Shown: in pieces, positions 1,556 to 39,985 of the stretch
Layout of the letters: every line of letters starts with the position of its first letter
Position numbering within the stretch: position 1 is the stretch's first letter
Assembly: GCA_016432365.1 (NCBI GenBank)
Contig: CP066686.1
Coordinates: 355 to 64,354, forward strand
DNA length: 64,000 nucleotides
From: Candidatus Woesebacteria bacterium
GTDB lineage: Bacteria; Patescibacteriota; Microgenomatia; UBA8517
Reading direction: 5' to 3'
Notes under the pieces: generated by a model
What the model was told of the DNA's origin: nothing
Seen by the model: the letters and a program-made list of their open reading frames with translations, nothing else
Databases searched by the model: none
Made by a program: the position numbers and the translations under genes

Positions 1556-1981
1556 TTACTTTAACTTAAGTGAAGATATCTCACTGGGCAAAAACGAGCC
1601 AATCGCTCCGCCAATTTTGTTTCTCAACTGAACCACATTTCCGAGATCTCTGTAATTTCTAACCGCCACCAACCTGTTTTTGTGTTTAGTATCCAGTCCT
1701 AAATATGATTTCTCCGAAGGTATCCGAAATGTAAAAATCCCGTCTTTGTACTCAGAACAATGTTCAATCGCTACAGTTATGTCCATCGGACGAGAATTTT
1801 TACCTTTCTCTTGTAGGTCTTCCATGCGTACCTCAAGTAACAATTCTATTCCATTGTCGTTGGCAAATTTGATTTGCTGCTCGAAACGGTCCGTGGCCTT
1901 ATTACTTAACGGGTCTTCTTTCCATTCTTTTAAGGCCCTATCAAGTCCCTCTTGTGTTGTTTTTGAGACTTCCATACCCAA
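1556..1981 (-). CDS. Hypothetical protein (141 aa)
   Basis: ORF with coding-like composition; no motif recognised. Confidence 0.5.
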   Translation of the reverse strand: MGMEVSKTTQEGLDRALKEWKEDPLSNKATDRFEQQIKFANDNGIELLLEVRMEDLQEKGKNSRPMDITVAIEHCSEYKDGIFTFRIPSEKSYLGLDTKHKNRLVAVRNYRDLGNVVQLRNKIGGAIGSFLPSEISSLKLK

Positions 1982-4310: not shown

Positions 4311-4659
4311 GATTAAAATTATACCAAATGTTAAAATACCCCAAATGGCAGATATTATTAAAGAGGTTGGCGGTGAAATTCCCTGGGATAAAGGACTACT
4401 TGAAGCCATGGAGGGGAAAGTCGCGGAGGAGATGGAAGGCCTCGATCATTCCTTTCGCTGGCTTACAGATCAGGAGAAAGATCAAATATTACAAGCGGGC
4501 GAAAGCCTGCCAAAGGACTTGCCCACAAGAAGATGGTTTGCAAGAACTGTCGTCATGGAGCTTAGAACAAAAAGTCCACTGAGTTCAGATAAATTTGACA
4601 GGCTGTTGGAAGAAAAATTGGCCGGCGCGCTTGCCGCAAAACAAAGATACTCAAGATAA
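4309..4659 (+). CDS. Hypothetical protein (start possibly at the internal Met, 4345)
   Basis: ORF divergent from the hydrolase gene; no obvious RBS at either start. Confidence 0.4.
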   Translation: MIKIIPNVKIPQMADIIKEVGGEIPWDKGLLEAMEGKVAEEMEGLDHSFRWLTDQEKDQILQAGESLPKDLPTRRWFARTVVMELRTKSPLSSDKFDRLLEEKLAGALAAKQRYSR

Positions 4660-5088
4660 CTATTTTTTTTGAGTAACCCATACCTCACCCATATCCCGAT
4701 CAAGTTTGTGGTTTTTAGGAACATCTTGATAAATTTTTATCGCAGTCAATTCTCCACCAATTGCAGGCTCAAATGGAACAATTAGATTATTTTCGAATAA
4801 TAATAATCCCCTCCAATACCCCCTCCTGATGTCAAGAAGTGTTAGTTCCTCCGTACTCCCTTGGTCGGTAACCATGAACATTCGTCTACCTACTTCAAAA
4901 TTACGACTACCGGAAATTATTCGTGAAGTCTTTTTTTTATCTGGAGAGAATTCACTGATCATGCTCGAAGCTACGTCTTCGATTTTTGCGTCATCACCCA
5001 ATAGCTCTCCAAGATCGCGGGCAAATTCTCGCAACGCAGGCTGGTCTGTTTCAGTCATATCGCCATTATAGGCAATCGCGTTCAACAA
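4660..5088 (-). CDS. Hypothetical protein (142 aa)
   Basis: ORF only. Confidence 0.45.
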   Translation of the reverse strand: MLNAIAYNGDMTETDQPALREFARDLGELLGDDAKIEDVASSMISEFSPDKKKTSRIISGSRNFEVGRRMFMVTDQGSTEELTLLDIRRGYWRGLLLFENNLIVPFEPAIGGELTAIKIYQDVPKNHKLDRDMGEVWVTQKK

Positions 5089-5120
5089 ATCAAAAATATC
5101 ACTTTCTGTTTCGAAGTACG

Positions 5121-5681
5121 CTACTTCTTATGACTGGAGCTCAAAAAACTTGGGGCGGCTGTGGGATTATTGGTATGTCTCAACATCCTTTCCTGTAAGG
5201 CTTTCTTGCTTACATTGATAATTTCCCCCTCTTTTGCCTCTAGACGTATAAAGCTGTCTATCGCCGTCGCCAGCTCATCAAGGCTTCCTATTTCAGAATG
5301 CTTTTTTGATTTATATATCATCTTATCCTCCATTGCGTTCTTGTTTACAAAATACACGGAAGTTATTCCCGGCCCCAACGTAAAAGCCACTTTTAACTCT
5401 CCACCGACCTTTGTAACAATATCGACCGCATCTACTGTAGAAATTGACTTTACCAATTCAAATTCGTGTTTTGACTCTGGGGGGAAACCTGCGTAATAAT
5501 TCAGGCGTTCACTGATTCCAGTATCGGCACCGCTATTGGCTCTGAAGACTATATCCTGAGCAATTTTTTCGATAAAATCCAAACTCGGAGCGAACTCTTT
5601 TTTTCTCTCGCCGATACCTCTTAGATGATCCGATAACCACTCCATTAACCCGAGAATACACACACTACCTGCCTTTGTCAA
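5121..5681 (-). CDS. Hypothetical protein (186 aa)
   Basis: ORF with a 4-nt overlap (ATGA-type) with the downstream gene. Confidence 0.5.
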   Translation of the reverse strand: MTKAGSVCILGLMEWLSDHLRGIGERKKEFAPSLDFIEKIAQDIVFRANSGADTGISERLNYYAGFPPESKHEFELVKSISTVDAVDIVTKVGGELKVAFTLGPGITSVYFVNKNAMEDKMIYKSKKHSEIGSLDELATAIDSFIRLEAKEGEIINVSKKALQERMLRHTNNPTAAPSFLSSSHKK

Positions 5682-6103
5682 GCTATCGGGTCTGAATTTG
5701 GGGCTTTGACCGGAGTATATTCAAGCTGGTAGTATTTGCCGTCGTCATCATCCAAAATATACAGATCCATGTTTGGAATCATTAGCCCCAAGTTTATGAC
5801 TTTTAGAGTCCATTTTCTTAAATCTTGATTCGGACCGACAAGTTCTTCGACATCTTTTTTTCTTACAACCAACTCTCCATATTTTTCCCCGGCATTAATT
5901 CTGGCTCTAGATTCATTAAATGGAGAAATGTCGTTAATGGATAGTTTTAGGTAGTCGTCTCCAACTTTCTGAAATACTTTCCCTTTATTCATGGCACCAA
6001 CTAAACTAATTTGGTCGGCAAACCAATCCTCAAATGAATATTCCGGTTTCTCAACCTCATTACTTATACTTGCCAAGATAAGAATTTTCGCTTCTTTTTC
6101 CAT
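5678..6103 (-). CDS. Hypothetical protein (141 aa)
   Basis: ORF abutting 6104..6337. Confidence 0.5.
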   Translation of the reverse strand: MEKEAKILILASISNEVEKPEYSFEDWFADQISLVGAMNKGKVFQKVGDDYLKLSINDISPFNESRARINAGEKYGELVVRKKDVEELVGPNQDLRKWTLKVINLGLMIPNMDLYILDDDDGKYYQLEYTPVKAPNSDPIA

Positions 6104-6337
6104 TCAGTTTGAATTTGGTCCGTCGTCAACACCTTTCAGTGCAACAATTTTTACCAATTTTTCATCGTCTTTACCAACTACGATTCCCCCATGTTCCTCT
6201 ATCTTCATTACTTCGTATCCCGCAGCTACTAAACGGCTAAAAACCTGTTCCGGTTCCAAGTGGTGCTTCTGGGCAACATCAACGCAAAAACTCCAAACTT
6301 TTTCGCTAAGCTTTATTATTGGACCCTGTCTCTCCAT
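6104..6337 (-). CDS. Hypothetical small protein (start moved to the internal Met MERQGPII...)
   Basis: The raw ORF (to 6418) would read through the terminator hairpin of the upstream cassette, so the internal Met is downstream of the terminator T-run. Confidence 0.4.
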   Translation of the reverse strand: MERQGPIIKLSEKVWSFCVDVAQKHHLEPEQVFSRLVAAGYEVMKIEEHGGIVVGKDDEKLVKIVALKGVDDGPNSN

Positions 6338-6377
6338 TAAGTTGAGGTTAAACCTCGAAAGTCTATTATTCAATCCC

Positions 6378-6436
6378 CAAAAAAATAGCGCCTGGTGGAC
6401 AATGATTGTATAAAACAAATCAATGCCGCCAGGCGC
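6378..6436 (-). terminator. Rho-independent terminator (cassette A), repeat copy 1
   Basis: On the minus strand: GCGCCTGGCGG - 27 nt loop - CCACCAGGCGC followed by TATTTTTTT, placed just 3' of 6443..6703. The hairpin sequence recurs at 7797-7853. Confidence 0.6.
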
Positions 6437-6442
6437 TTGAGA

Positions 6443-6703
6443 TCAACTACTATGCCGATTGGAACTGTTCAGTTCCTGCTCAAATACTGCGTAAAAACGC
6501 AGCCAGCCTTGCGGCATACCGGAACGCAGGTCAGGAAAGACCGAACAACTGACAAGTCGGTAACCCTGGGCTGACGTAGCAGCAAGAAAAACGCTCCAGG
6601 CCTTACCTTGATCTTTTTTGTCTCCATCAATGGTGTCTATCAACATCGGGCCGATCGGAGACTGGTGTCCCGAAACTTCCAAGTGCTCAAATTTCTTTGA
6701 CAT
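6443..6703 (-). CDS. Small hypothetical protein (86 aa), paralog of 7871..8113
   Basis: GGAGG RBS. It shares WSVFLAA..GYRLVSCSVFPD..GW.RFYAVF with WTQFLAK..VTMVGYSVIPAPD..GWYRMHATF in the paralog. GC is about 50%. Confidence 0.6.
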   Translation of the reverse strand: MSKKFEHLEVSGHQSPIGPMLIDTIDGDKKDQGKAWSVFLAATSAQGYRLVSCSVFPDLRSGMPQGWLRFYAVFEQELNSSNRHSS

Positions 6704-6734
6704 ACGTCCTCCAAATAGTTAAATGCTTGACCCT

Positions 6735-7685
6735 TTAAAGTCTTGGATCAGCCAGATAAACACTTACCGTGTCGCCGGCTTCAATCTGGGAGTTGCATGT
6801 AGAATGTGTCGCATCGTCATCTCCAATGGTCAACTTTAGTACTTCGGGAGGCCAAATATTATTATCAATCTTTCTCCCAAGCACAGTAAGCGCAAATGGA
6901 GTTAGAACTTCTGTTGCGCTTCGACCAATCAATGCTGCCGTTTGAAACGCATAGAGAAATTGACTGTAACCACGGCGGACAAAAATCTTTTCGCCCCTCA
7001 ACAGTCTATGGTCTGTACAATCTCCTTCTCCGCAACGCGGACAAATGACCACATCCGAAGGCCTGATTTTCAACGCTCGGGAGATTTGATCGTCAAGCCA
7101 TATTTGCCCGGGCAAATAGCCGACAATCCGTTCGTCTGTGTATGGGCCGAGCAGTTTTTCCTGGAATACCTCCAACCTAGCCATATCTTCAAAGGCATGT
7201 AGACTTCCTTGCCCATGTTCTTCGCCGTCCGACAGTGCAACAACTACGTCGCCGCTTCCCAACCTATCCCAAGGCGCAGAATCAGCCTCCTTACCGTTAA
7301 CAAACACCCGTGCCAGTGCCAGGTCATCTTCACCGGTAAGTTTCTCCAAAAAAGAACTGAGTGATTGACCAGAGTCGCTAAACACAATGTTTTCAACGTT
7401 AAGGTGGTTAAGTCCAATTGGAGCGGAATATTCTGTCCAAAGACCTTTTTGTGTTTTGGTTAACCCCAACACTCCGGTTTTGGACAACGTATGCGCACGG
7501 GCAATCCGCGAAATTTGTTCTTCCGTAAACTGTCCCTTTGTTCGGAAAAAATTTCCGCCGGGTGTTGACGGCTTCCTAACCAAATATATTCCTACAACAT
7601 CCGATGTGGCCCGTCTCGCAATTGAATCAACAAAAACAGCAATTTCAGGGAAATCCCGTTCAAGGTTCTTTCCTTTTGTAAACAT
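6735..7685 (-). CDS. Hypothetical protein (316 aa) with ThiS/MoaD-like beta-grasp segments and a CPRCG-x3-DC-x-DH motif; paralog of 13638..14954
   Basis: GGAGG RBS and elevated GC. The C-terminal ~100 aa align with the C-terminus of the 438-aa protein (VICPRCGEGDCTDH...FVRR...LYAFQ...GDTV). Confidence 0.6.
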   Translation of the reverse strand: MFTKGKNLERDFPEIAVFVDSIARRATSDVVGIYLVRKPSTPGGNFFRTKGQFTEEQISRIARAHTLSKTGVLGLTKTQKGLWTEYSAPIGLNHLNVENIVFSDSGQSLSSFLEKLTGEDDLALARVFVNGKEADSAPWDRLGSGDVVVALSDGEEHGQGSLHAFEDMARLEVFQEKLLGPYTDERIVGYLPGQIWLDDQISRALKIRPSDVVICPRCGEGDCTDHRLLRGEKIFVRRGYSQFLYAFQTAALIGRSATEVLTPFALTVLGRKIDNNIWPPEVLKLTIGDDDATHSTCNSQIEAGDTVSVYLADPRL

Positions 7686-7716
7686 TTGTTCCTCCGATCA
7701 GATTTTAAGCCGAAAT

Positions 7717-7763
7717 GTGCAAACTATGGGGATTATAGACTTTTTGACTATCCAATTCCAGTT
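7717..7763 (-). promoter_or_regulatory. Repeated promoter/5' leader element, copy A, carrying a perfect -10 TATAAT
   Basis: This 47-nt element is identical to 8141-8187. On the minus strand it reads ...TGGAAT-17nt-TATAAT... about 45 nt upstream of the ATG of 6735..7685. Confidence 0.5.
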
Positions 7764-7796
7764 CACCTAAGCCCGACAGCCCCGCCAAAAAAATAG

Positions 7797-7853
7797 CACC
7801 TGGGAGCAGTGATTGTATAAAACAAATCAATGCCGCCAGGCGCTTTTGTTGTT
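7797..7853 (-). terminator. Rho-independent terminator (cassette B), repeat copy 2
   Basis: Same hairpin and T-run as 6378-6436, placed just 3' of 7871..8113. Confidence 0.55.
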
Positions 7854-7870
7854 TGCGTGTCGTGTCGACC

Positions 7871-8113
7871 TTATCTGTATTCAGGCACCCTGAAAGTTGC
7901 GTGCATCCGATACCAGCCGGGTCCGGGGATCTGGATATCAGGAGCAGGAATAACGGAATACCCAACCATCGTCACATTATTTGCTTCCTGTTTTGCAAGA
8001 AACTGAGTCCATGTCTGGGCATTCGCCGCCTTTTCCTCTTTACCGTCAACCATTGTGACAACAAATTCTTTACCGGGCGCAGCAAGGCACCAAACTTCAA
8101 AATATCTACTCAT
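7871..8113 (-). CDS. Small hypothetical protein (80 aa), paralog of 6443..6703
   Basis: GGAGG RBS. It is flanked by the repeated promoter element on the 5' side and the repeated terminator on the 3' side. Confidence 0.6.
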   Translation of the reverse strand: MSRYFEVWCLAAPGKEFVVTMVDGKEEKAANAQTWTQFLAKQEANNVTMVGYSVIPAPDIQIPGPGWYRMHATFRVPEYR

Positions 8114-8140
8114 ATCTACCTCCGAGAATATAGGAATTGT

Positions 8141-8187
8141 TTGAAAACGTGCAAACTATGGGGATTATAGACTTTTTGACTATCCAA
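8141..8187 (-). promoter_or_regulatory. Repeated promoter/5' leader element, copy B
   Basis: Identical 47-mer to 7717-7763; the TATAAT lies about 47 nt upstream of the ATG of 7871..8113. Confidence 0.5.
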
Positions 8188-8540
8188 TTCCAGTTTTTTT
8201 CCTGCCCCCAAATCCCCATTGAATTTTCAGGTTCAACTTTGGCCTCCAAGAACACCGTGTTAAATTTCATTTTTGTTTTCTGTTTGTAAACAAGCGTTTG
8301 TGAGGAAACCGCGAGAAAGTTTCCACAAACCCCATCAAAACTGCACCTAGAAATTTTAGCTTTTTGAGCGAGGGATACACCAAACTGACCGAAGGGAATT
8401 TGGTGAGGGCGGAGGCTCCCCGGCAAAAAGCGTTAAGAAATTTCTGGATAAGTTTTGTAGGGGCACCCTTTCATCTCCATTCTTTGGGTGCGCAAAGAAT
8501 GGAAAAAGTGTGTTCTAGGAGGCAAGAAATTGGTAAAAAT

Positions 8541-8924
8541 TTACTTTGTTTTTAATTCCAAAATATCTTCAGGTCTAAAAAAACCAATTGTTTTTTCAGT
8601 TCTACTATCTAAAAATAAATAAGACCTTTCTCTTATCGCCCCTACCCGCATCGAAAGTTCGGGTGAAGACTCAAACACTATTGAATAACCATCAACACAT
8701 CCATGCCTGAAGGCAACTGTTCTAATTATAGGGAGCTCACTGGTTCCAAATTTATCCAGCACTTCCCTTTTGACCTTAAGTAACAAACCTTCCGTTGCCA
8801 AGGCCACCGTAATCGCCTCACTCACTCTTGCCAAATATTCCTTAGAATCAGGCATTTTCTGCCATGAAGAAAGGGCGTTTGTAAGTTCAAGATTTAAATG
8901 CGATTTGTTTTTGTCGCGTTCCAC
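8541..8924 (-). CDS. Hypothetical protein (127 aa), weak paralog of 9738..10142
   Basis: Both start MERD. and share the ..WQ..P(D/E).. and ..FRPE(D/H)I.. blocks. Confidence 0.5.
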   Translation of the reverse strand: MERDKNKSHLNLELTNALSSWQKMPDSKEYLARVSEAITVALATEGLLLKVKREVLDKFGTSELPIIRTVAFRHGCVDGYSIVFESSPELSMRVGAIRERSYLFLDSRTEKTIGFFRPEDILELKTK

Positions 8925-9037
8925 CGTTAAAGAGTGTAAAGGGGATAAGACAAATAATCAAACACCAATATCTGGTATAATCTCCCCGTTTGAACCAATT
9001 CGGGTTCAGGCACATTCACAATCGGAAGGAGGCTTGA

Positions 9038-9673
9038 GTGAAAGAAATACTCGCGTTCACGGGGATTTGGGTAGTACTGACCGTCGCAATGCTTGTCCAC
9101 GAGCTTGGACATGCCCTTGTCGCAGGCGCCCTTGGAGAAAAAGTCGAAGAAATTTCCCTGGGTTTACCAAGATTGTTTACTTTCAAACTGTTTGGGATAC
9201 CAGTCAGAGTTGGGCTACTTCCATTAATTGGAGGCACGAAACTCGACAGCCTACTCAAAATGCGTTGGCTCAAAAAAGCGGTGATTGCACTATCGGGCCC
9301 GGTTTTTAACTTTGCCTTCGCTCTGTGCTGCTACTACGCCGTCGGTGGATTTGACCAAATCGCAAGTCTTGCCGAAGACCAATTTTTGGTTATCCCAACT
9401 GTTAAGTCCTTTTTTGGCAACGAGAGTTTACCCACTCCGGGCCTCACAGCTTTGTTCGCGTCCATGACACCAAAGAATGTCATCTTCGCAATTGGAGACA
9501 TCAATCTACTGTTGGCCATTTTGAACATGCTGCCAATTCCTGTGCTTGACGGTGGCAGAATTCTGTTCGCGTTCTTGGAAGGTGTATTTGGAAAGGTTGT
9601 TAACAATATACAGGCCATTCTGATACCGATATCGTTCATCCTGCTCATACTGTGGCAAGTATTAATAAAATGA
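9038..9673 (+). CDS. Site-2 protease family (M50) intramembrane zinc metalloprotease
   Basis: HELGHAL (HExxH) sits in TM1 and a downstream LDGG motif is present; the protein is polytopic. Confidence 0.75.
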   Translation: MKEILAFTGIWVVLTVAMLVHELGHALVAGALGEKVEEISLGLPRLFTFKLFGIPVRVGLLPLIGGTKLDSLLKMRWLKKAVIALSGPVFNFAFALCCYYAVGGFDQIASLAEDQFLVIPTVKSFFGNESLPTPGLTALFASMTPKNVIFAIGDINLLLAILNMLPIPVLDGGRILFAFLEGVFGKVVNNIQAILIPISFILLILWQVLIK

Positions 9674-9679
9674 AGCGTT

Positions 9680-9728
9680 GTGGGTGATCACTGGTAGCGA
9701 AATCTACTCATATCACCCACAGTTTTTA
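9680..9728 (+). terminator. Rho-independent terminator after the M50 protease gene
   Basis: GTGGGTGAT - 23 nt - ATCACCCAC followed by AGTTTTTA. Confidence 0.5.
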
Positions 9729-9737
9729 TCACCAAAC

Positions 9738-10142
9738 TCACCTGACGATAAACGAATCGATCTCATGAGGTCTAAAAGCCGCCATCCATACACGTTCACC
9801 TTTGCGTCCCTCAAAGATTAAAAGATGGGGCTGATCCCCTACACTTCTGGCGAAAATGCGGTATTTGCCATTTTCAGTACTGGTCCTAAAACGAAAGGTG
9901 TAAAGGTCATCTTTCTTTTTTGCAAGCCTAGCAATGTCAGTTAGTTGCATTGCCCGTCTCCCTTCACTGTTTTCAAAAGTTTCTGCTTTTATATTCAAAT
10001 CTAAATTTAATCCCATTTGATTGGTTGTAGAAAACAAACTGTTTATTTTTGCCATTGCCACATTGTTTTCCGGAAAACTTTGCCAGTAAAAAAGTGATGC
10101 TCTGAAGTCCTTATTAACCGCGTTAATTCTATCTCTTTCCAT
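9738..10142 (-). CDS. Hypothetical protein (134 aa), weak paralog of 8541..8924
   Basis: See 8541..8924. Confidence 0.5.
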   Translation of the reverse strand: MERDRINAVNKDFRASLFYWQSFPENNVAMAKINSLFSTTNQMGLNLDLNIKAETFENSEGRRAMQLTDIARLAKKKDDLYTFRFRTSTENGKYRIFARSVGDQPHLLIFEGRKGERVWMAAFRPHEIDSFIVR

Positions 10143-10379
10143 CTATTTTCCTTCCGCCATTTCGTAATGATCAATGATCATTTCAATTTCATCGTCTGTC
10201 AGTAATTTTCTCAAATTTCTCTCGACCCCAATAAGTATGTCCGATCCGATGTCAACTTTATTGTGGAGAATAATTGTGTAGTAAATTCCTGCCGCAGTCC
10301 GCTTGGCCAAATTTTCGATAGATCCGCCATTGCCAAAAACGTCGGTGGCAAACTTACGAGAATTTTCAACTAGTGCCAT
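10143..10379 (-). CDS. Hypothetical small protein (78 aa)
   Basis: ORF abutting the neighbouring genes. Confidence 0.45.
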   Translation of the reverse strand: MALVENSRKFATDVFGNGGSIENLAKRTAAGIYYTIILHNKVDIGSDILIGVERNLRKLLTDDEIEMIIDHYEMAEGK

Positions 10380-10418: not shown

Positions 10419-12230
10419 TTACCCGGCCCCACCACCTCCGCCGCCTCCACCACCACCACCGCCACCGGAAAAACCACCGGAACTTCCAACACCGCTAGCT
10501 CCGTACGAATTAAAGGATGAAGACAGGGTGGAAAATGCGCTTTCAAAATGCCCCAACCCCCCTAAATTCCCCGATGTCCCATGGCCGTAAAACGCCATAT
10601 ACATTCCGCTACCCCGCTGTGCCACTTCACTAAACTTTATTGGTAATTGAGACAGAGCCTTAACAGAAATTCCCAAAACAGTTCCATACACCAAATACTT
10701 TTCCCAAAGGATTACAGAATCGATTGCATAATTTTTTGTCACTGAATAATCCTTTAGCCATTTCTTAAACGCCAGCCAACCGGCCACCTCTTTCCCTCCC
10801 CACATGCTTTTTTTCCTCATTGAAGCAACCGAGAGAACCATAACAGAATCACACACGATAAATACCGGAATTAGCTGTGGAATTAAAATGAATCCCCCAA
10901 ACTGAAAATAAAGGTAAGTCAAAATTCCCCAACCCACAAGTTCTCCTATACCTTTCTTTTGTACATCCAAACTTTGTTGTTCATAAAATCCCAATTTCTT
11001 TAAGTCTGTTTTTGCATCTTCTTTCCAACTCATCCAAAAACTCTGAGTTTTGCTCGGGCGGGTTTTCCCAAAATTCTTAATTTCGTCAAAATTTAAACGG
11101 GTCTGACCCTCGTTAAACAAAAACTCCAACAAATCCCGTTCCATTTGGGAAACTAAATCCAAATACGATTCTTTCTTAAGAACTAAAATGTAAACGTCTT
11201 TGTTTCCCCAAAAAGATTTTTTTCGATTTTTTATGAAATCAATTGCCAGAATTTTCCTCCTCGTCAACTCGAGTATTGTTGCTACGATAGATTTTCCGGT
11301 AGCTCCACTGGAAAGCATAGTTTCCACATAGACAGGCGCCAAATCGCTTGGCGGTTCATGGAGCGTTCCCGCCAAATTAACTTTAGGCAAAGGGTCGTCT
11401 TTACCTACTTTGTACCAGCGGAGAATCCAAACCATAGTTCTCCAAATTAACAGAAAGCCAACTAGACCGATTAGACTAATTTGTCCAACTTGACTAATCC
11501 GTGTTTTGTTTTGAAACACTTTTTCCTCAGCAAGAATATTCTTTAAATCACTATCGCCTTTGCCTGAGTTAACAAAAGCCGGGTTTGTGGGAAACAGAAT
11601 TCTCACTTCAAAAAATTTATTTGCAGAAAGGTTTGAACCACTAAAACCAACTTCCTGGTTAGAAATAATATTTACTTTTCCGTTCAATGGCCCATGTCCA
11701 AAAGCCCACACGCTGTCATTTGGAACCGGGTAAGCCAAATGAACTTTTGCGGTGACAGTGCCAACACCCTTCGTCCATTTATCACCAATCAGTTGCCAAT
11801 AAAACTCAGAGATGTCCGAGTGGCTTGCGACAGCGTTTTGAATTGTATATTTGAGAGTGAAGGTTTTATTTTGATTGACTGCCGTGTAATACCACTTGAT
11901 ATAAATTTTATCCCCCTGGTCAGTAATAGAGAATGTCCCCGGTAGCGCTGTGTTATCTTCAACGTATTTATCTGTTCCTTCCGATAATTCTAAATTCTTA
12001 ATTCTTAATTCTAAATTCTTTTTAGAAATCCATTCATCCGCCCAACTAAAGCTTCCGTCAAAATTGTAGACTCTCGTTTCAGATATATCCGCCGACCCGT
12101 CTTTATTTATCTTTACATCAAAATCTGCGGACTCAATCGAATAATCTTTGGCGTGTGCAATAAGAGTAGAAGAGTAAAAGAGTGTAAGAGTAAAAGAAAT
12201 AAAAACAAAATGTAAAAAAAATTTCTTCAC
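10419..12230 (-). CDS. DUF2207-like membrane protein with an N-terminal signal, central TM segments and a C-terminal Gly-rich tail
   Basis: Signal peptide, an extracellular domain, multiple TM helices, then a Ser/Gly tail ending in poly-Gly. This architecture is typical of DUF2207. Confidence 0.55.
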   Translation of the reverse strand: MKKFFLHFVFISFTLTLFYSSTLIAHAKDYSIESADFDVKINKDGSADISETRVYNFDGSFSWADEWISKKNLELRIKNLELSEGTDKYVEDNTALPGTFSITDQGDKIYIKWYYTAVNQNKTFTLKYTIQNAVASHSDISEFYWQLIGDKWTKGVGTVTAKVHLAYPVPNDSVWAFGHGPLNGKVNIISNQEVGFSGSNLSANKFFEVRILFPTNPAFVNSGKGDSDLKNILAEEKVFQNKTRISQVGQISLIGLVGFLLIWRTMVWILRWYKVGKDDPLPKVNLAGTLHEPPSDLAPVYVETMLSSGATGKSIVATILELTRRKILAIDFIKNRKKSFWGNKDVYILVLKKESYLDLVSQMERDLLEFLFNEGQTRLNFDEIKNFGKTRPSKTQSFWMSWKEDAKTDLKKLGFYEQQSLDVQKKGIGELVGWGILTYLYFQFGGFILIPQLIPVFIVCDSVMVLSVASMRKKSMWGGKEVAGWLAFKKWLKDYSVTKNYAIDSVILWEKYLVYGTVLGISVKALSQLPIKFSEVAQRGSGMYMAFYGHGTSGNLGGLGHFESAFSTLSSSFNSYGASGVGSSGGFSGGGGGGGGGGGGGAG

Positions 12231-13637: not shown

Positions 13638-14954
13638 CTATTTGATCACGATCTTGACGGTGTCACCGCTGCGGATACTTTTCGAACAAAGAACCCGTTC
13701 GGTATCAACGCCGTTGATCTCAATTACAGCCACCTCATTCGGCCAATCCAGATTCCGAACCTTACGACCGATGACAGCGGGGGCTAGTGGAACCAGCTTG
13801 TCAGTCGCGTTGCCGCGCAGATCCGCCTGGAAAGCGTACAGGAACGAGTCCTGGCTATTGCGCCGAACGAAAACAAGACTTCCCTTGGACAGGTTGTGAT
13901 CGGAACAATCCGGTTTGCCACATCTCGGACAAATAACGTTGTCGTCAACGTCCAGATCAAGCGCAGCGCTCAAATCGTCGTCCATAAACAAACCGAGAGG
14001 TGTGTTGCCGGCAAAACCAGGGAGGGTGTACGGGCCGTCGAGAACCGCCTTGTAGACCATAACGGTCGGCATTTCGGAAAATTCGAGTCCGTCATCCACT
14101 GTTCCGCCGCGATCAGAAACCGCAACCGCCACATCACCGAGACTGAAACTGTCTTCACGGCTGATACGGAAATCGAACGTACTCTTGGGAACTTCCATAC
14201 CATTCACATAGTAGTGATTGGCATCAAAGAATCCGTTGACGATGGTTCGAACGATACTGTGGTTGACTGCAAAGTCGAACATGTGCTGATCGACAAGCTC
14301 AACGCTTCCGTCAGCAGTATCCGTGGTGTACTCGGTCCACTCACGGTTTGTTTTACCACGACTCCCAACTTTCACACCCGCGATACGCATAAGTTGCGCA
14401 ACCTGGGCGGAGGTCGGATTGCCGCGGTAGCGGAGGAGCTTCTTGCTCTTGGCCCGGCCATTGACGCGGAAAGACAGTCCCCAGACGGCTTTGTCCGAAA
14501 TGGATGTCTGAGCGTCGGCGGCTTTTGCAATCTCGGGATACATGCGATAGAGATCGGTCGGCTCCCCTTTCATGGTTTCCAGAGCCTGGACAAAATCTTC
14601 CACCTGTGGAGAGGTATCCCATTTGTCCGAAAACTCGAGACCGAAATCCCGCGAGTTGTGAGGTCGGCTGAATTCGATCTTGTTGCCACCCGCGCTAAAG
14701 GGCTGGAAAACGAAGTCCCCACCCCTGTTGAAGCGATCAGTCAAGCCGGCAAGATTCCGCTTCGAAAACTCGAACTCTTCGACGGTTCGGCCGTCATACA
14801 AAAGCGAGATGGTGATGCGGCCGGCATTTTGGCTGAGAACAATGGTCCCACGATCGATTCTCCCACTTGGCCTTGTCGCGCTCCTGGCGTAAACATTGTC
14901 AATTTGAACACGATTCGGTCCGTTGGTATTTTTGAACATGGCTGCCTCCTTCAA
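13638..14954 (-). CDS. Hypothetical protein (438 aa) with repeated ThiS/MoaD-like beta-grasp segments and a CPRCG-x3-DC-x-DH motif; paralog of 6735..7685
   Basis: High-GC island of about 55%, so the antisense ORF 13896..14975 is an artifact. The C-terminal ~100 aa align with the C-terminus of the 316-aa protein. VNG...GD.V.V..GG-like segments are present. Confidence 0.6.
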   Translation of the reverse strand: MKEAAMFKNTNGPNRVQIDNVYARSATRPSGRIDRGTIVLSQNAGRITISLLYDGRTVEEFEFSKRNLAGLTDRFNRGGDFVFQPFSAGGNKIEFSRPHNSRDFGLEFSDKWDTSPQVEDFVQALETMKGEPTDLYRMYPEIAKAADAQTSISDKAVWGLSFRVNGRAKSKKLLRYRGNPTSAQVAQLMRIAGVKVGSRGKTNREWTEYTTDTADGSVELVDQHMFDFAVNHSIVRTIVNGFFDANHYYVNGMEVPKSTFDFRISREDSFSLGDVAVAVSDRGGTVDDGLEFSEMPTVMVYKAVLDGPYTLPGFAGNTPLGLFMDDDLSAALDLDVDDNVICPRCGKPDCSDHNLSKGSLVFVRRNSQDSFLYAFQADLRGNATDKLVPLAPAVIGRKVRNLDWPNEVAVIEINGVDTERVLCSKSIRSGDTVKIVIK

Positions 14955-23457: not shown

Positions 23458-23528
23458 GCTGGGGGACAGGGATTCGAACCCCGATAAACAACTCCAAAGG
23501 CTGCTGTCCTACCATTAGACGATCCCCC
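23458..23528 (-). tRNA. tRNA-Gln (anticodon UUG)
   Basis: The minus strand reads TGGGGGATCGTCTAATGGTAGGAC-A-GCAGC-CTTTGGA-GTTGT...GGGGTTCGAATCCC...TCCCCCAG. The acceptor stem pairs, T-loop is TTCGAAT, anticodon loop is CU-UUG-GA, and the ends resemble E. coli tRNA-Gln (TGGGG....CCCCAG). Confidence 0.65.
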
Positions 23529-23739
23529 ATTGTCGGAATGAGTATCGCTAACGGTTTATCGCTGACGCTTAAACCTTTTCGCTTTACTATTCCTCCTCTC
23601 AAAATTCTTACAGAATTTTGTCTTTTAGAACACAAAATTTGCATTCGCAAATTTTGAGAGGAGCGATCGACGAAAAGCTGAAGTTTCAAGCTTAAATTTA
23701 TTAAGCGAGAAACGAAAGCAGTCGTCGCATTCGCGACGA

Positions 23740-23811
23740 GTGACCTCACTGGGACTCGAACCCAGGTAATCAGGCTGAAAACCTGATGTCCTAACCGCTA
23801 GACGATGAGGC
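23740..23811 (-). tRNA. tRNA-Glu (anticodon UUC)
   Basis: The minus strand reads GGCCTCATCGTCTAGCGGTTAGGAC-A-TCAGG-TTTTCAG-CCTGA-...-GGGTTCGAGTCCC...TGAGGTCA. D-arm is GTCTAG.GG..AGGAC, as in tRNA-Glu. Confidence 0.7.
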
Positions 23812-23944
23812 CAAGTAAACTTGGCATATATCTTCAGTGTCCCCAGCAAAATTTGTAAAACAAATTTTGAGAGGAGGAGCCAACCGCAAATAGCGAAGTT
23901 TCTGAATTTTCAGAAACAAAGCGCTTAGGTTGTACTCCGACGAG

Positions 23945-24016
23945 TGAGCCCTCTGGGACTCGAACCCAGAACCGCTTCCTTAAAAGGGAATTGCTCTACC
24001 ATTGAGCTAAGGGCCC
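23945..24016 (-). tRNA. tRNA-Lys (anticodon UUU)
   Basis: The minus strand reads GGGCCCTTAGCTCAATGGTAGAGC-A-ATTCC-CTTTTAA-GGAAG...GGGTTCGAGTCCC...AGGGCTCA. TTAGCTCA.TGGTAGAGCA and CTTTTAA match tRNA-Lys(UUU). Confidence 0.7.
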
Positions 24017-39745: not shown

Positions 39746-39985
39746 TTAAACTGCTGGAGGTGTTTGCGGGGGCATTCCTGCTCCTGCGTCTCCCGTTCCT
39801 TCAGTTGGTGTAGGTGTCGGCATTACCGGAGCTTCTGGCTCTGGCATTACTGGCTCAACAGGAGCTGGTGTTCCCACCGGCATTGTTGGTTGTTCTACAA
39901 CTGGCGTTGCAGGTGCCTGAACAGGAGCGTTCGGGTCTGCCGCTGGAACTGTTGGACTAACCGGATTTTGTGCGTTTGGATCCAT
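39746..39985 (-). CDS. Proline/alanine-rich low-complexity protein (79 aa)
   Basis: ORF starting 3 nt after the trxA stop, with a GGTGG RBS-like sequence. The antisense ORF 39764..40048 is an artifact. Confidence 0.35.
   Translation of the reverse strand: MDPNAQNPVSPTVPAADPNAPVQAPATPVVEQPTMPVGTPAPVEPVMPEPEAPVMPTPTPTEGTGDAGAGMPPQTPPAV

What the first reader, a model, noticed from the sequence alone, without database searches (positions are those of the whole stretch)
6378..8187. Two duplicated promoter-gene-terminator cassettes carrying paralogous ~80-aa proteins
Two minus-strand transcription units are bounded by the same DNA elements. A 47-nt block (7717-7763 and 8141-8187, identical) contains a perfect TATAAT about 45 nt upstream of each start codon. 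A GC-rich hairpin followed by a T-run (6378-6436 and 7797-7853) follows each small gene. The small genes 6443..6703 and 7871..8113 are clear protein paralogs of unknown function with strong GGAGG RBSs. Cassette A additionally carries the 316-aa beta-grasp/zinc-motif protein. The whole block is about 50% GC against a ~38% background. This architecture suggests a recently duplicated, horizontally acquired module of unknown function.
Basis: seen in the sequence. Interest (0 to 1): 0.75.

Follow-up and report, generated by a model that had tools for sequence, protein, structure and literature searches.

The report
Duplicated promoter/terminator around orphan Woesebacteria genes
In this Candidatus Woesebacteria genome, two neighbouring transcription units use copies of the same promoter and the same long terminator hairpin to express two old, diverged small paralogues (DUF4177-like fold) and a 316-aa orphan protein. 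The feature is real and specific to this locus, but it is an ordinary piece of local genome evolution and its function is unknown.

Summary
The second promoter copy lies at 8149-8195, not 8141-8187. GC is 46% against 41%, not 50% against 38%.

**Layout (minus strand):** P2, gene B (80 aa), T_B, P1, 316-aa gene, gene A (86 aa), T_A.

**P and T are specific to this locus.**
- Each occurs twice in the window and once per related locus.
- T occurs once in a relative's whole MAG. Neither element was found in viral contigs.

**The large+small operon is conserved.** Two other Woesebacteria lineages carry it at the same syntenic site. A fourth lineage carries only promoter, small gene and terminator. 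Two population variants have a broken large gene.

**A and B are not recent duplicates.** They share 30% aa identity and synonymous sites are saturated. Yet the two promoter copies are identical even in the spacer, which differs in every other lineage. This points to gene conversion or re-copying of the regulatory elements only.

**Recent horizontal acquisition is not supported.** The site is syntenic, and the GC excess is the same in all lineages.

**Proteins:**
- The small proteins fold confidently (pLDDT 87) into a beta-beta-alpha-beta-beta domain. It resembles DUF4177 and, more weakly, the GFRP/KCTD C-terminal fold.
- The 316-aa protein has no known domain, an invariant CxxCx4CxxH motif, and a 433-aa paralogue at 13638-14939.

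Function is inferred only: a small partner binding a large protein. Interest is low to moderate.

The parts
8145..8195 (-). Promoter block copy P2. The -35-like TGGAAT is at 8187-8192, followed by a 17-nt spacer. The -10 TATAAT is at 8164-8169, followed by the conserved CCCCATAGTTTGCAC.
   Evidence: It matches P1 at 50/51. In five sequences from four lineages, TGGAA, TATAAT and GTTTGCAC are invariant. The spacer varies between lineages but is identical between the two window copies.
8114..8144 (-). S-type leader of gene B, with GGAGG at 8119-8123
   Evidence: Read. It is homologous to the leader of the lone small gene in L019. It is unstructured, z = +1.4.
7871..8113 (-). Gene B, 80 aa, a small DUF4177-like paralogue (HYV90_00070)
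   Evidence: It aligns to A at 30% identity, E = 6e-9. The exhaustive profile search hits it at E = 2.6e-40. It is unique to this genome. Its N-terminal half is closest to P0005 of L019, at 53%.
7786..7844 (-). Terminator T_B: a long hairpin (7795-7844) followed by a U-run (7786-7794)
   Evidence: The tested stretch folds at -33.6 kcal/mol, z = -4.4. The covariance model scores it at 85 bits. Its 5' arm and loop are identical to T_A. Its 3' arm differs but still pairs.
7764..7785 (-). Unique junction between T_B and P1
   Evidence: It has no counterpart in T_A's downstream flank or in P2's upstream flank. This argues against an assembly chimera.
7713..7763 (-). Promoter block copy P1. TGGAAT is at 7755-7760 and TATAAT at 7732-7737.
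   Evidence: From TATAAT to the ATG (55 nt) it is 100% identical to L021, although the proteins are only 60% identical.
7686..7712 (-). L-type leader of the 316-aa gene, with GGAGG
   Evidence: It is conserved in L021 (identical) and in L001. It is unstructured, z = +0.7.
6735..7685 (-). 316-aa orphan protein (HYV90_00065) with an invariant CxxCx4CxxH motif (C215, C218, C223, H226)
   Evidence: Homologues are known only in Woesebacteria: 76% to P0002 and 60% to the L021 320-aa protein. There are no Pfam, PHROG, PADLOC, NCBIfam or PDB hits. dN/dS is 0.2-0.37.
6443..6703 (-). Gene A, 86 aa, a small DUF4177-like protein (HYV90_00060). It lies 31 nt downstream of the 316-aa gene, with no promoter or terminator between them.
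   Evidence: The AF2 model has pLDDT 87 with a b1-b2-a-b3-b4 topology. Orthologues follow the large gene in L001 and L021. Against L001, dS is saturated and dN is 0.51, while the adjacent 316-aa gene has dS 0.39.
6378..6437 (-). Terminator T_A: a long hairpin (6387-6437) followed by a U-run (6378-6386)
   Evidence: The tested stretch folds at -31 kcal/mol, z = -5.8. The covariance model scores it at 98 bits. It is 94-96% identical to L001 and L021, while its flanks are 25-62% identical.
13638..14939 (-). 433-aa paralogue of the 316-aa protein (HYV90_00115). It stands alone, with its own promoter-like site and terminator hairpin.
   Evidence: tblastn and BLASTP give 33% identity over 313 aa, E = 1e-40, and the CCCH motif is conserved. 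It has no Pfam hit. No orthologue was found in the fetched relatives.
8196..8540 (-). Non-coding spacer upstream of P2. It begins with the terminator hairpin of the 127-aa gene and contains a conserved block at 8280-8304.
   Evidence: It aligns to the equivalent spacers of L001 and L019. The same spacer precedes the single promoter in those lineages.

Best explanation
This is a chromosomal locus specific to one Woesebacteria clade. It is not a freshly acquired duplicated module.

**Shown**
- The conserved core is a sigma-70-type promoter (TGGAAT, 17 nt, TATAAT), an unstructured leader, a bicistronic operon (316-aa CCCH-motif protein, then a small DUF4177-like protein), and a long-stem intrinsic terminator.
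- The window's genome also carries, directly upstream, a monocistronic unit. It has the same promoter, a different (S-type) leader, the old paralogue B, and a variant of the same terminator.
- Both units therefore read the same regulatory signals and should be switched on together.

**Inferred: evolution**
- The S unit and the L operon are both old forms of this locus.
- The direct repeats P and T allow loss or gain by recombination. This gives L-only (L001, L021), S-only (L019) and S+L (window) haplotypes.
- Small-gene alleles are replaced by recombination, using the conserved flanks.
- The two promoter copies in the window have been homogenised by gene conversion or re-copying.

**Inferred: function (low confidence, about 0.2)**
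- The small proteins are oligomerising protein-binding domains that bind or regulate the large-family proteins.
- A would pair with the 316-aa protein.
- B would be a second specificity, possibly for the stand-alone 433-aa paralogue.
For: **Architecture**
- Repeats, RBSs and hairpins are as described.
- Promoter footprint: the -35-like and -10 hexamers are invariant in 5 sequences from 4 lineages, while the spacer varies.
- The leaders are unstructured.
- Terminator consensus fold: 20 pairs, all kept.

**Locus specificity**
-.

**Conserved operon and alternative forms**
- L001 and L021 carry large+small between the same P and T.
- L019 carries P, S-leader, small gene and T with no large gene. 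Its downstream flank equals the window's T_A flank.

**Old paralogy**
- A and B share 30% identity, with dS about 2.2.
- The family has only 4 clusters among 1.84 billion representatives.

**Homogenised promoters**
- P1 and P2 match at 50/51, including the lineage-variable spacer.

**Allele replacement**
- Between the window and L001, dS is 0.09-0.24 for M50 and the 127-aa gene, 0.39 for the 316-aa gene, and saturated for gene A.
- The identity profile shows T as a 94-96% island.

**Mosaic small gene in L019**
- Its N-terminal half is B-like (53%) and its C-terminal half A-like (48-62%). Fisher p is about 1e-4 at the best cut.

**Fold**
- AF2 pLDDT is 87.
- DUF4177 gives sub-threshold hits for 3 of 5 members, best 20.7 bits against a cutoff of 25.
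- DUF4177 phage proteins appear among the BFVD hits, with TM 0.46-0.53 (normalised to the query).

**Family counts**
- The genome has two large and two small family members.
Against: - No transcript data exist. The promoter and terminator are sequence predictions, and the -35 matches the consensus at only 3 of 6 positions.
- Nothing shows physical interaction between the small and large proteins.
- B and the 433-aa gene are 5.5 kb apart and use different promoters.
- The DUF4177 score is below Pfam's threshold, and A and B themselves give no hit.
- Fold matches are weak: no Foldseek hit at E<=0.001.
- The mosaic signal in P0005 is seen at the protein level only. At the nucleotide level the N-terminal part is equally similar to B and to P0006, 61% each.
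- A 51-nt gene-conversion tract is short for RecA-type recombination.
- The whole 1.08-Mb genome could not be scanned for further P or T copies. It is not in genome contigs.
Confidence: 0.5

Rival explanations
1. A module of unknown function was recently acquired horizontally and then recently duplicated in tandem. One copy subsequently lost the large gene.
For: - The 51-nt promoter copies are near-identical.
- Cassette B is absent from the closest relative, L001. There the promoter is separated from the 127-aa gene by 292 nt, against 773 nt in the window.
- GC is modestly raised.
Against: - A and B share 30% identity with saturated synonymous sites.
- B's leader and N-terminal half match the lone cassette of L019, so the S form is old.
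- The repeated DNA stops exactly at the edges of the promoter and of the terminator. It is not one contiguous duplicated segment.
- The operon is syntenic in three lineages and shows the same GC excess in each.
- No mobile-element or phage signal was found.
Confidence: 0.08
2. A conflict module of the toxin-antidote or toxin-immunity type. The large CCCH protein would be harmful, and the co-transcribed small protein would neutralise it. B would be an orphan or spare antidote, and rapid allele turnover would reflect an arms race.
For: - The large and small genes are tightly coupled.
- The large gene is repeatedly lost or broken while the small gene stays. It is deleted in L019, carries a 1-nt frameshift in L022, and a 128-nt deletion in L024.
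- The small gene diverges far more than its neighbours: 47% against 77% and 96% aa identity.
- An extra promoter-driven small paralogue is present.
- The region is indel-rich. In L021, the slot that holds the 433-aa paralogue in the window carries a RHH/CcdA-like plus YafQ/RelE-like pair, with sub-threshold scores.
Against: - No match to any toxin, antitoxin or defence model.
- The small-protein fold is not a known antitoxin fold.
- The large gene is under purifying selection, dN/dS 0.2-0.37, like an ordinary gene.
- The frameshift and deletion come from metagenome assemblies and could be errors.
- In L022 and L024 the small protein is identical to that of intact loci, so nothing can be said about selection on it.
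- The 433-aa paralogue has no adjacent small gene.
Confidence: 0.17
3. Assembly artefact. Two co-existing strain haplotypes, one S-form and one L-form, were stitched in tandem at the shared promoter and terminator repeats when the MAG was closed.
For: - The tandem is seen in one genome only.
- An independent Logan assembly of SRR12113421 breaks exactly inside P1 and T_A. Its 1338-nt contig starts 61 nt before the ATG and ends 34 nt after gene A. This shows the repeats are graph branch points.
- S-only and L-only haplotypes do exist in relatives.
Against: - The T_B-to-P1 junction (7764-7785) is unique sequence that neither haplotype alone would supply.
- T_B differs from T_A in its 3' arm and flank.
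- Contig breaks at repeats longer than k are equally expected for a true two-copy arrangement.
- The mosaic small gene of L019 is most simply derived from a tandem ancestor.
Confidence: 0.05
4. The hairpin and promoter block are parts of a mobile or site-specific cassette system (integron attC-like, MITE or REP-like), rather than plain regulatory signals.
For: - The hairpin sequence, including its loop, is 94-96% conserved while its flanks are 25-62% identical, and no compensatory changes are seen.
- Variable genes lie between the conserved P and T.
Against: - There is one copy per relative locus and none elsewhere in a relative's MAG, in metagenome contigs or in viral contigs.
- Each unit has its own promoter, unlike integron cassettes.
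- No recombinase was detected among the nine neighbouring proteins.
- The hairpin is followed by a U-run directly after a stop codon, as a terminator should be.
Confidence: 0.03

Closest known systems
DUF4177 (Pfam PF13783), small alpha+beta proteins of unknown function
   Same: - About 60-90 aa, with the motif helix ... (K/E)GW(E/R)L(V/A)S ... hairpin ... F(K/E)(R/Q).
- Sub-threshold HMM hits for three of five family members: 20.7, 18.6 and 14 bits.
- Predicted DUF4177 phage proteins are among the best BFVD structural matches.
   Different: - Scores fall below the gathering cutoff of 25 bits, and the window's own A and B give no hit.
- There is an extra N-terminal beta-hairpin.
- The family is confined to one Woesebacteria clade, with 4 clusters in 1.84 billion representatives.
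- DUF4177 has no established function. One report calls a 66-aa clostridial member bacteriocin-like (PMC11322243).
GFRP and the KCTD C-terminal (H1) domain fold
   Different: The match is at fold level only, with 10-18% identity. The best Foldseek E-value is 0.05. No oligomer was tested here.
Phage 'morons' (an autonomous promoter-gene-terminator unit inserted between genes)
   Same: Cassette B is a single small gene with its own promoter and terminator. It is present in one genome and absent at the same site in close relatives.
   Different: It is not in a prophage. There are no PHROG hits and no relatives in viral contigs or phage records. The unit also shares its signals with the neighbouring resident operon.
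Toxin-antitoxin loci, or toxin-immunity loci with orphan immunity genes
   Same: A large gene is followed by a tightly coupled small gene. There is an extra stand-alone small paralogue. The large gene is lost or broken in some lineages, and the setting is variable.
   Different: No sequence or model match to any known component. Toxicity is untested.
Replacement islands or 'minimal mobile elements' exchanged by homologous recombination through conserved flanks (as known in Neisseria and streptococci; cited from general knowledge)
   Same: Conserved flanks (P plus leader, and T) bracket highly divergent alleles. dS is heterogeneous between adjacent genes.
   Different: The flanks here are 50-65 nt regulatory elements, not conserved genes. 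Exchange is inferred, not observed.

Membership tests
Intrinsic (Rho-independent) terminator | A stable G+C-rich stem-loop immediately followed by a U-run, downstream of a stop codon | tested here: met
   The tested stretches fold at -31 and -33.6 kcal/mol, z = -5.8 and -4.4. A run of 7 U follows the stem. The hairpins start 5 and 26 nt after the stop codons. All 20 consensus pairs are kept in 5 sequences.
Intrinsic (Rho-independent) terminator | Transcripts end at the U-run | not testable with these tools
   No RNA data are available.
Sigma-70-type promoter | -35 and -10 hexamers at 16-18 nt spacing | tested here: met
   TATAAT is perfect. TGGAAT matches the -35 consensus at 3 of 6 positions, 17 nt upstream. 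Both hexamers are invariant across 4 lineages while the spacer varies. The generic scan did not list the site because of the weak -35.
Sigma-70-type promoter | Mapped transcription start | not testable with these tools
   No RNA data are available.
DUF4177 (PF13783) | Score at or above Pfam's gathering cutoff (25 bits) | tested here: not met
   A and B give no hit. P0006 scores 20.7 bits, the L001 orthologue 18.6 and P0005 14.0.
DUF4177 (PF13783) | Shared fold | tested here: inconclusive
   The model has pLDDT 87. Three annotated DUF4177 phage proteins are among the BFVD hits, with prob 0.82-1.0 and TMq 0.46-0.53 but E = 0.16-0.57. The afdb50 library was unavailable.
GFRP / KCTD C-terminal domain | Homology beyond fold resemblance, and a pentameric assembly | tested here: inconclusive
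Type II toxin-antitoxin or toxin-immunity pair | Two adjacent co-transcribed genes | tested here: met
   The gap is 31 nt with its own RBS, and there is one promoter and one terminator. The same arrangement occurs in L001 and L021.
Type II toxin-antitoxin or toxin-immunity pair | A recognisable toxin or antitoxin domain | tested here: not met
   No hits in Pfam, NCBIfam, PADLOC or PHROGs.
Type II toxin-antitoxin or toxin-immunity pair | Toxicity that the partner neutralises | not testable with these tools
   This needs an experiment.
Integron gene cassette | A promoterless ORF ending in an attC hairpin, next to an IntI integrase | tested here: not met
   Each unit has its own promoter. No integrase is present among the 9 neighbouring proteins. 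The hairpin carries a U-run. The rest of the 64-kb window was not screened for integrases.
Dispersed repeat (REP, MITE or generic regulatory element) | Many copies across a genome | tested here: not met
   There are two copies in 64 kb and one per related locus. A 19-mer of T occurs once in the relative's MAG. The window's own complete genome could not be scanned.
Beta-grasp (ThiS/MoaD/ubiquitin-like) domain in the 316-aa protein | A sequence or fold match to a beta-grasp family | tested here: inconclusive
   No Pfam hit at E<=10. The AF2 model has pLDDT 33. Only a visual VNG...GDxVxV motif exists, invariant in 4 homologues.

The most novel reading that the evidence does not exclude
The locus encodes a previously unrecognised two-component conflict system restricted to CPR bacteria.
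- DUF4177-like small proteins would neutralise CCCH-zinc large proteins, pairing A with the 316-aa protein and B with the 433-aa protein.
- The unusually conserved promoter/leader and terminator hairpin would do double duty. They would be operator or binding sites for autoregulation, and homology anchors that let populations swap small-gene alleles.
- If so, this would give DUF4177 its first mechanistic role.
Probability: 0.12. Interest if true: 0.55.

Novelty: new member of a known kind. Interest (0 to 1): 0.27.

Why it matters
If the partner-binding or antidote reading were right, it would assign a role to the widespread but uncharacterised DUF4177 fold. It would also add a conflict or regulatory module specific to CPR bacteria, whose genomes are full of orphan genes.

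As it stands, the locus is mainly a clean small example of three things:
- Regulatory elements kept or homogenised while the genes between them diverge or are swapped.
- Direct repeats of about 50 nt that generate presence/absence haplotypes in an ultra-small genome.
- A terminator hairpin whose loop sequence is conserved far beyond what termination needs. This is worth a note for anyone studying regulation in Woesebacteria.

Tried and rejected
**No result**
- AF2 of the 316-aa protein with a 2-sequence alignment gave pLDDT 33, unusable, so no fold search was run on it.
- The afdb50 fold library was not available.
- Rfam at E<=1 over 5-10 kb gave only spurious miRNA, snoRNA and carA hits far below their thresholds.
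- PHROGs, PADLOC and NCBIfam gave nothing for nine neighbourhood proteins.
- PDB sequence searches with three profiles gave nothing meaningful.
- Phage and plasmid tblastn searches and four viral-contig scans found no relatives and no elements.

**Searches that missed known relatives**
- Word-indexed homologue searches missed the 320-aa L021 protein. Its cluster representative is a 152-aa fragment.
- They also missed the 433-aa paralogue, which a local tblastn found.

**Ideas rejected**
- I thought the 127-aa and 134-aa neighbours looked like paralogues. BLASTP shows no similarity.
- Internal duplication within the 316-aa protein: none found.
- A structured 5' leader or riboswitch: the leaders are less structured than shuffles.
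- Nucleotide-level support for the B/A chimera in L019: not discriminating.
- The hairpin as a genome-wide repeat: rejected for the relative's MAG and for all held sequence.
Full report
**Source of the window.** The window comes from a Candidatus Woesebacteria MAG closed into one 1,078,985-bp contig. The three genes of the finding carry locus tags HYV90_00060, 00065 and 00070, and all are annotated as hypothetical proteins.

**Observation.** Read on the minus strand, the region runs as follows:
- P2 at 8195-8145
- leader with GGAGG
- gene B at 8113-7871 (80 aa)
- hairpin plus U-run T_B at 7844-7786
- a unique 22-nt junction
- P1 at 7763-7713
- leader with GGAGG
- the 316-aa gene at 7685-6735
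- a 31-nt gap with GGAGG
- gene A at 6703-6443 (86 aa)
- hairpin plus U-run T_A at 6437-6378

The 47-nt block is exactly repeated, at 7717-7763 and 8149-8195. No such repeat is expected by chance, and the repeat extends to 51 nt at 50/51. The hairpins share an identical 5' arm and loop. They fold far better than shuffles, with z = -5.8 and -4.4. A and B are paralogues at 30% identity over 71 aa, E = 6e-9. GC is 46.2% against 40.9% for the window, a smaller contrast than reported, and 13-15 kb is richer.

**Are P and T generic?** No.
- In the window, each occurs only twice, even allowing 3 mismatches.
- A covariance model of T built from five sequences finds two strong hits in the window (98 and 85 bits) and one per related locus. 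Everything else scores 31 bits or less.
- A 19-mer of T occurs once in the relative's MAG in the species-representative genome collection. The other 11 hits are chance matches in unrelated phyla, and one of them (L011) was checked and does not contain the hairpin.
- The inner hairpin occurs on one metagenome contig, the same contig as L021.
- Neither element occurs in viral contigs.
- The window's own genome is not in the genome collection, so a true genome-wide scan was not possible.

**Relatives.**
- The 316-aa protein has a 76%-identical homologue (P0002) on groundwater contigs L001-L006.
- It has a 60%-identical 320-aa homologue in Rifle Woesebacteria, L020/L021/L025.
- An exhaustive profile search with A+B against 1.84 billion representatives returned only four proteins: A, B, P0005 (88 aa) and P0006 (82 aa).
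- In L001 and L021 the locus is P, L-type leader, large gene, small gene, T, in the same chromosomal synteny as the window: DEAD helicase ... methyltransferase ... 600-aa protein ... 134-aa ... 127-aa.
- L001 lacks cassette B. It has 292 nt between the 127-aa gene and the promoter, against 773 nt in the window.
- In L019 the same spacer and promoter are followed by an S-type leader like B's, a single small gene (P0005), T, and the window's T_A downstream flank. There is no large gene.
- In L022 the large gene has a 1-nt insertion. In L024 it has a 128-nt deletion.
- So the large and small genes do co-occur as a module. However, the large gene is dispensable, and the locus exists in L-only, S-only and S+L forms.

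**Age of the duplication.**
- A against B gives dN 0.82 and dS about 2.2.
- B lies outside the A orthologues, at 29-37% identity, while the orthologues share 38-54%.
- B's N-terminal half is closest to P0005 (53%). P0005's C-terminal half is A-type (48-62%, against 22% to B).
- The informative sites switch at about column 40, with Fisher p about 1e-4 at the best cut. The nucleotide level does not discriminate.
- This fits L019 having arisen from a tandem S+L ancestor by recombination between the two small genes. That event would delete the large gene.
- By contrast, P1 and P2 are identical in the -35/-10 spacer, which differs in every other lineage. The shared DNA also stops exactly at the functional edges of the promoter and the terminator. 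So the regulatory copies are recent or homogenised while the genes are old.

**Conservation pattern.**
- Between the window and L001, dS is 0.09 for M50, 0.24 for the 127-aa gene, 0.39 for the 316-aa gene, about 1.0 for the 134-aa and 104-aa genes, and saturated for gene A. This is a recombination mosaic in which the small-gene allele has been replaced.
- T is a 94-96% island between flanks of 25-62% identity. It shows no compensatory changes.
- The 55 nt from TATAAT to the ATG of the large gene are identical between the window and L021, although the proteins are 60% identical.
- The leaders are unstructured.
- By comparison, the terminator after the 127-aa gene is not conserved in sequence.
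- Why T and the leader are so conserved remains unexplained. Protein binding, or a role as recombination anchors, are candidates.

**Horizontal origin.** The operon has 46-47% GC against 40-42% flanks in all lineages. The site is syntenic, and nothing phage-, plasmid- or defence-like was found. Recent acquisition is therefore not supported.

**Proteins.**
- The small protein A, modelled with a 4-sequence alignment, gives pLDDT 87 and a b1-b2-a-b3-b4 topology.
- Pfam DUF4177 matches three of the five family members below threshold, best at 20.7 bits against a cutoff of 25.
- BFVD hits include three annotated DUF4177 phage proteins.
- DUF4177 has no established function. One paper calls a clostridial member bacteriocin-like (PMC11322243), and another notes synteny with whiB-type regulators in Streptomyces (PMC13118837).
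- The 316-aa protein matches no family, structure or defence model, and its AF2 model failed.
- A local tblastn found a 433-aa paralogue at 13638-14939: 33% identity over 313 aa, E = 1e-40, with about 120 extra N-terminal residues.
- With that paralogue in the alignment, the invariant residues are WTEY, VNG, GDV, SDG, GPY, ICPxCGxxDCxxH, FVxR, LYAFQ, GRK, WP, C297 and DTV.
- The paralogue stands alone after the DEAD helicase gene. In L021 that slot holds a sub-threshold RHH/CcdA-like plus YafQ/RelE-like pair, and in L001 a 223-aa orphan.
- This genome therefore has two large and two small family members.

**Assembly check.** An independent Logan assembly of SRR12113421 yields a 1338-nt contig. 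It starts inside P1 and ends inside T_A, as expected when P and T are repeats in the read graph. The unique T_B-to-P1 junction argues against a stitched chimera, but spanning reads were not examined.

**Verdict.**
- The feature is real. The interpretation as a co-occurring module with locus-specific signals is right.
- 'Recent duplication' applies at most to the promoter copies, and 'horizontally acquired' is unsupported.
- Most likely, this is a clade-specific operon plus an old stand-alone paralogue cassette. Both are driven by the same promoter and closed by the same terminator, in a recombination-prone stretch of the chromosome.
- The mechanistic guess is that the small oligomerising partner proteins bind the large CCCH proteins, possibly in a conflict-type relationship. 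This is inference only.

Noticed in passing
window 13638-14939 (minus): A 433-aa paralogue of the 316-aa protein: 33% identity, E = 1e-40, CCCH motif conserved, with about 120 extra N-terminal residues. It lies in the GC-richest part of the window (about 50%). It has its own promoter-like site (TTGACT ... TATACT) and its own terminator hairpin, and no small gene beside it.
   Followed up: partly
L001 5089-7739 (equivalent to window position ~10417): The relative carries a 2.65-kb block that the window lacks at the same junction. It encodes 298-aa, 181-aa, ThiF/E1-like 220-aa and 79-aa proteins.
   Followed up: no
window 4655-6377: A 1.7-kb segment directly after T_A (ORFs 4660-5088, 5121-5681, 5678-6103, 6104-6337) is absent from L001. 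Its 141-aa and 186-aa genes follow T in L019 and L021. The 77-aa ORF at 6104-6337 is missing from L019.
   Followed up: partly
L021 4086-4592: Adjacent 78-aa and 86-aa genes give sub-threshold matches to RHH/CcdA antitoxins (E = 1e-4) and YafQ/HigB/ParE toxins (E = 4e-5). They occupy the slot that holds the 433-aa paralogue in the window.
   Followed up: no
window 8280-8304 (minus) and L001, L019, L021: The intergenic block CTCACAAACGCTTGTTTACAAACAG is conserved upstream of the promoter in L001 (core repeated twice, 93 nt apart) and in L019. In L021 it sits at a different place, upstream of a 132-aa gene.
   Followed up: partly
window 8479-8533: The terminator-like hairpin after the 127-aa gene matches, at 93%, a stretch after the DEAD-box helicase gene in L001 (781-835). 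So it is a second short element shared between the two variable slots.
   Followed up: no
window 1685-1945 (ORF 1556-1981, minus): tblastn shows a 32%-identical paralogue of the 127-aa protein (8541-8924), E = 5e-5.
   Followed up: no
L022 9019-9982; L024 5890-6724: In two Rifle population variants the 320-aa gene is interrupted, by a 1-nt insertion at position 478 and a 128-nt deletion at position 358. The downstream small protein is unchanged. These may be real pseudogenes or assembly errors.
   Followed up: partly
window 8541-10379 compared with L001: Synonymous divergence between adjacent genes of the two genomes ranges from 0.09 to about 1.0. This points to frequent recombination among diverged Woesebacteria lineages.
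   Followed up: partly
window 10420-10480: A run of GGN codons (CCN on the plus strand) encodes a poly-Gly C-terminal tail on the 603-aa protein. Similar repeats occur at about 28.2, 28.8 and 32.1 kb.
   Followed up: no
window 23458-24016: A cluster of tRNA-Gln, tRNA-Glu and tRNA-Lys genes on the minus strand. tRNA-Arg(TCT) at 39798-39890 is unusually long, at 93 nt.
   Followed up: no
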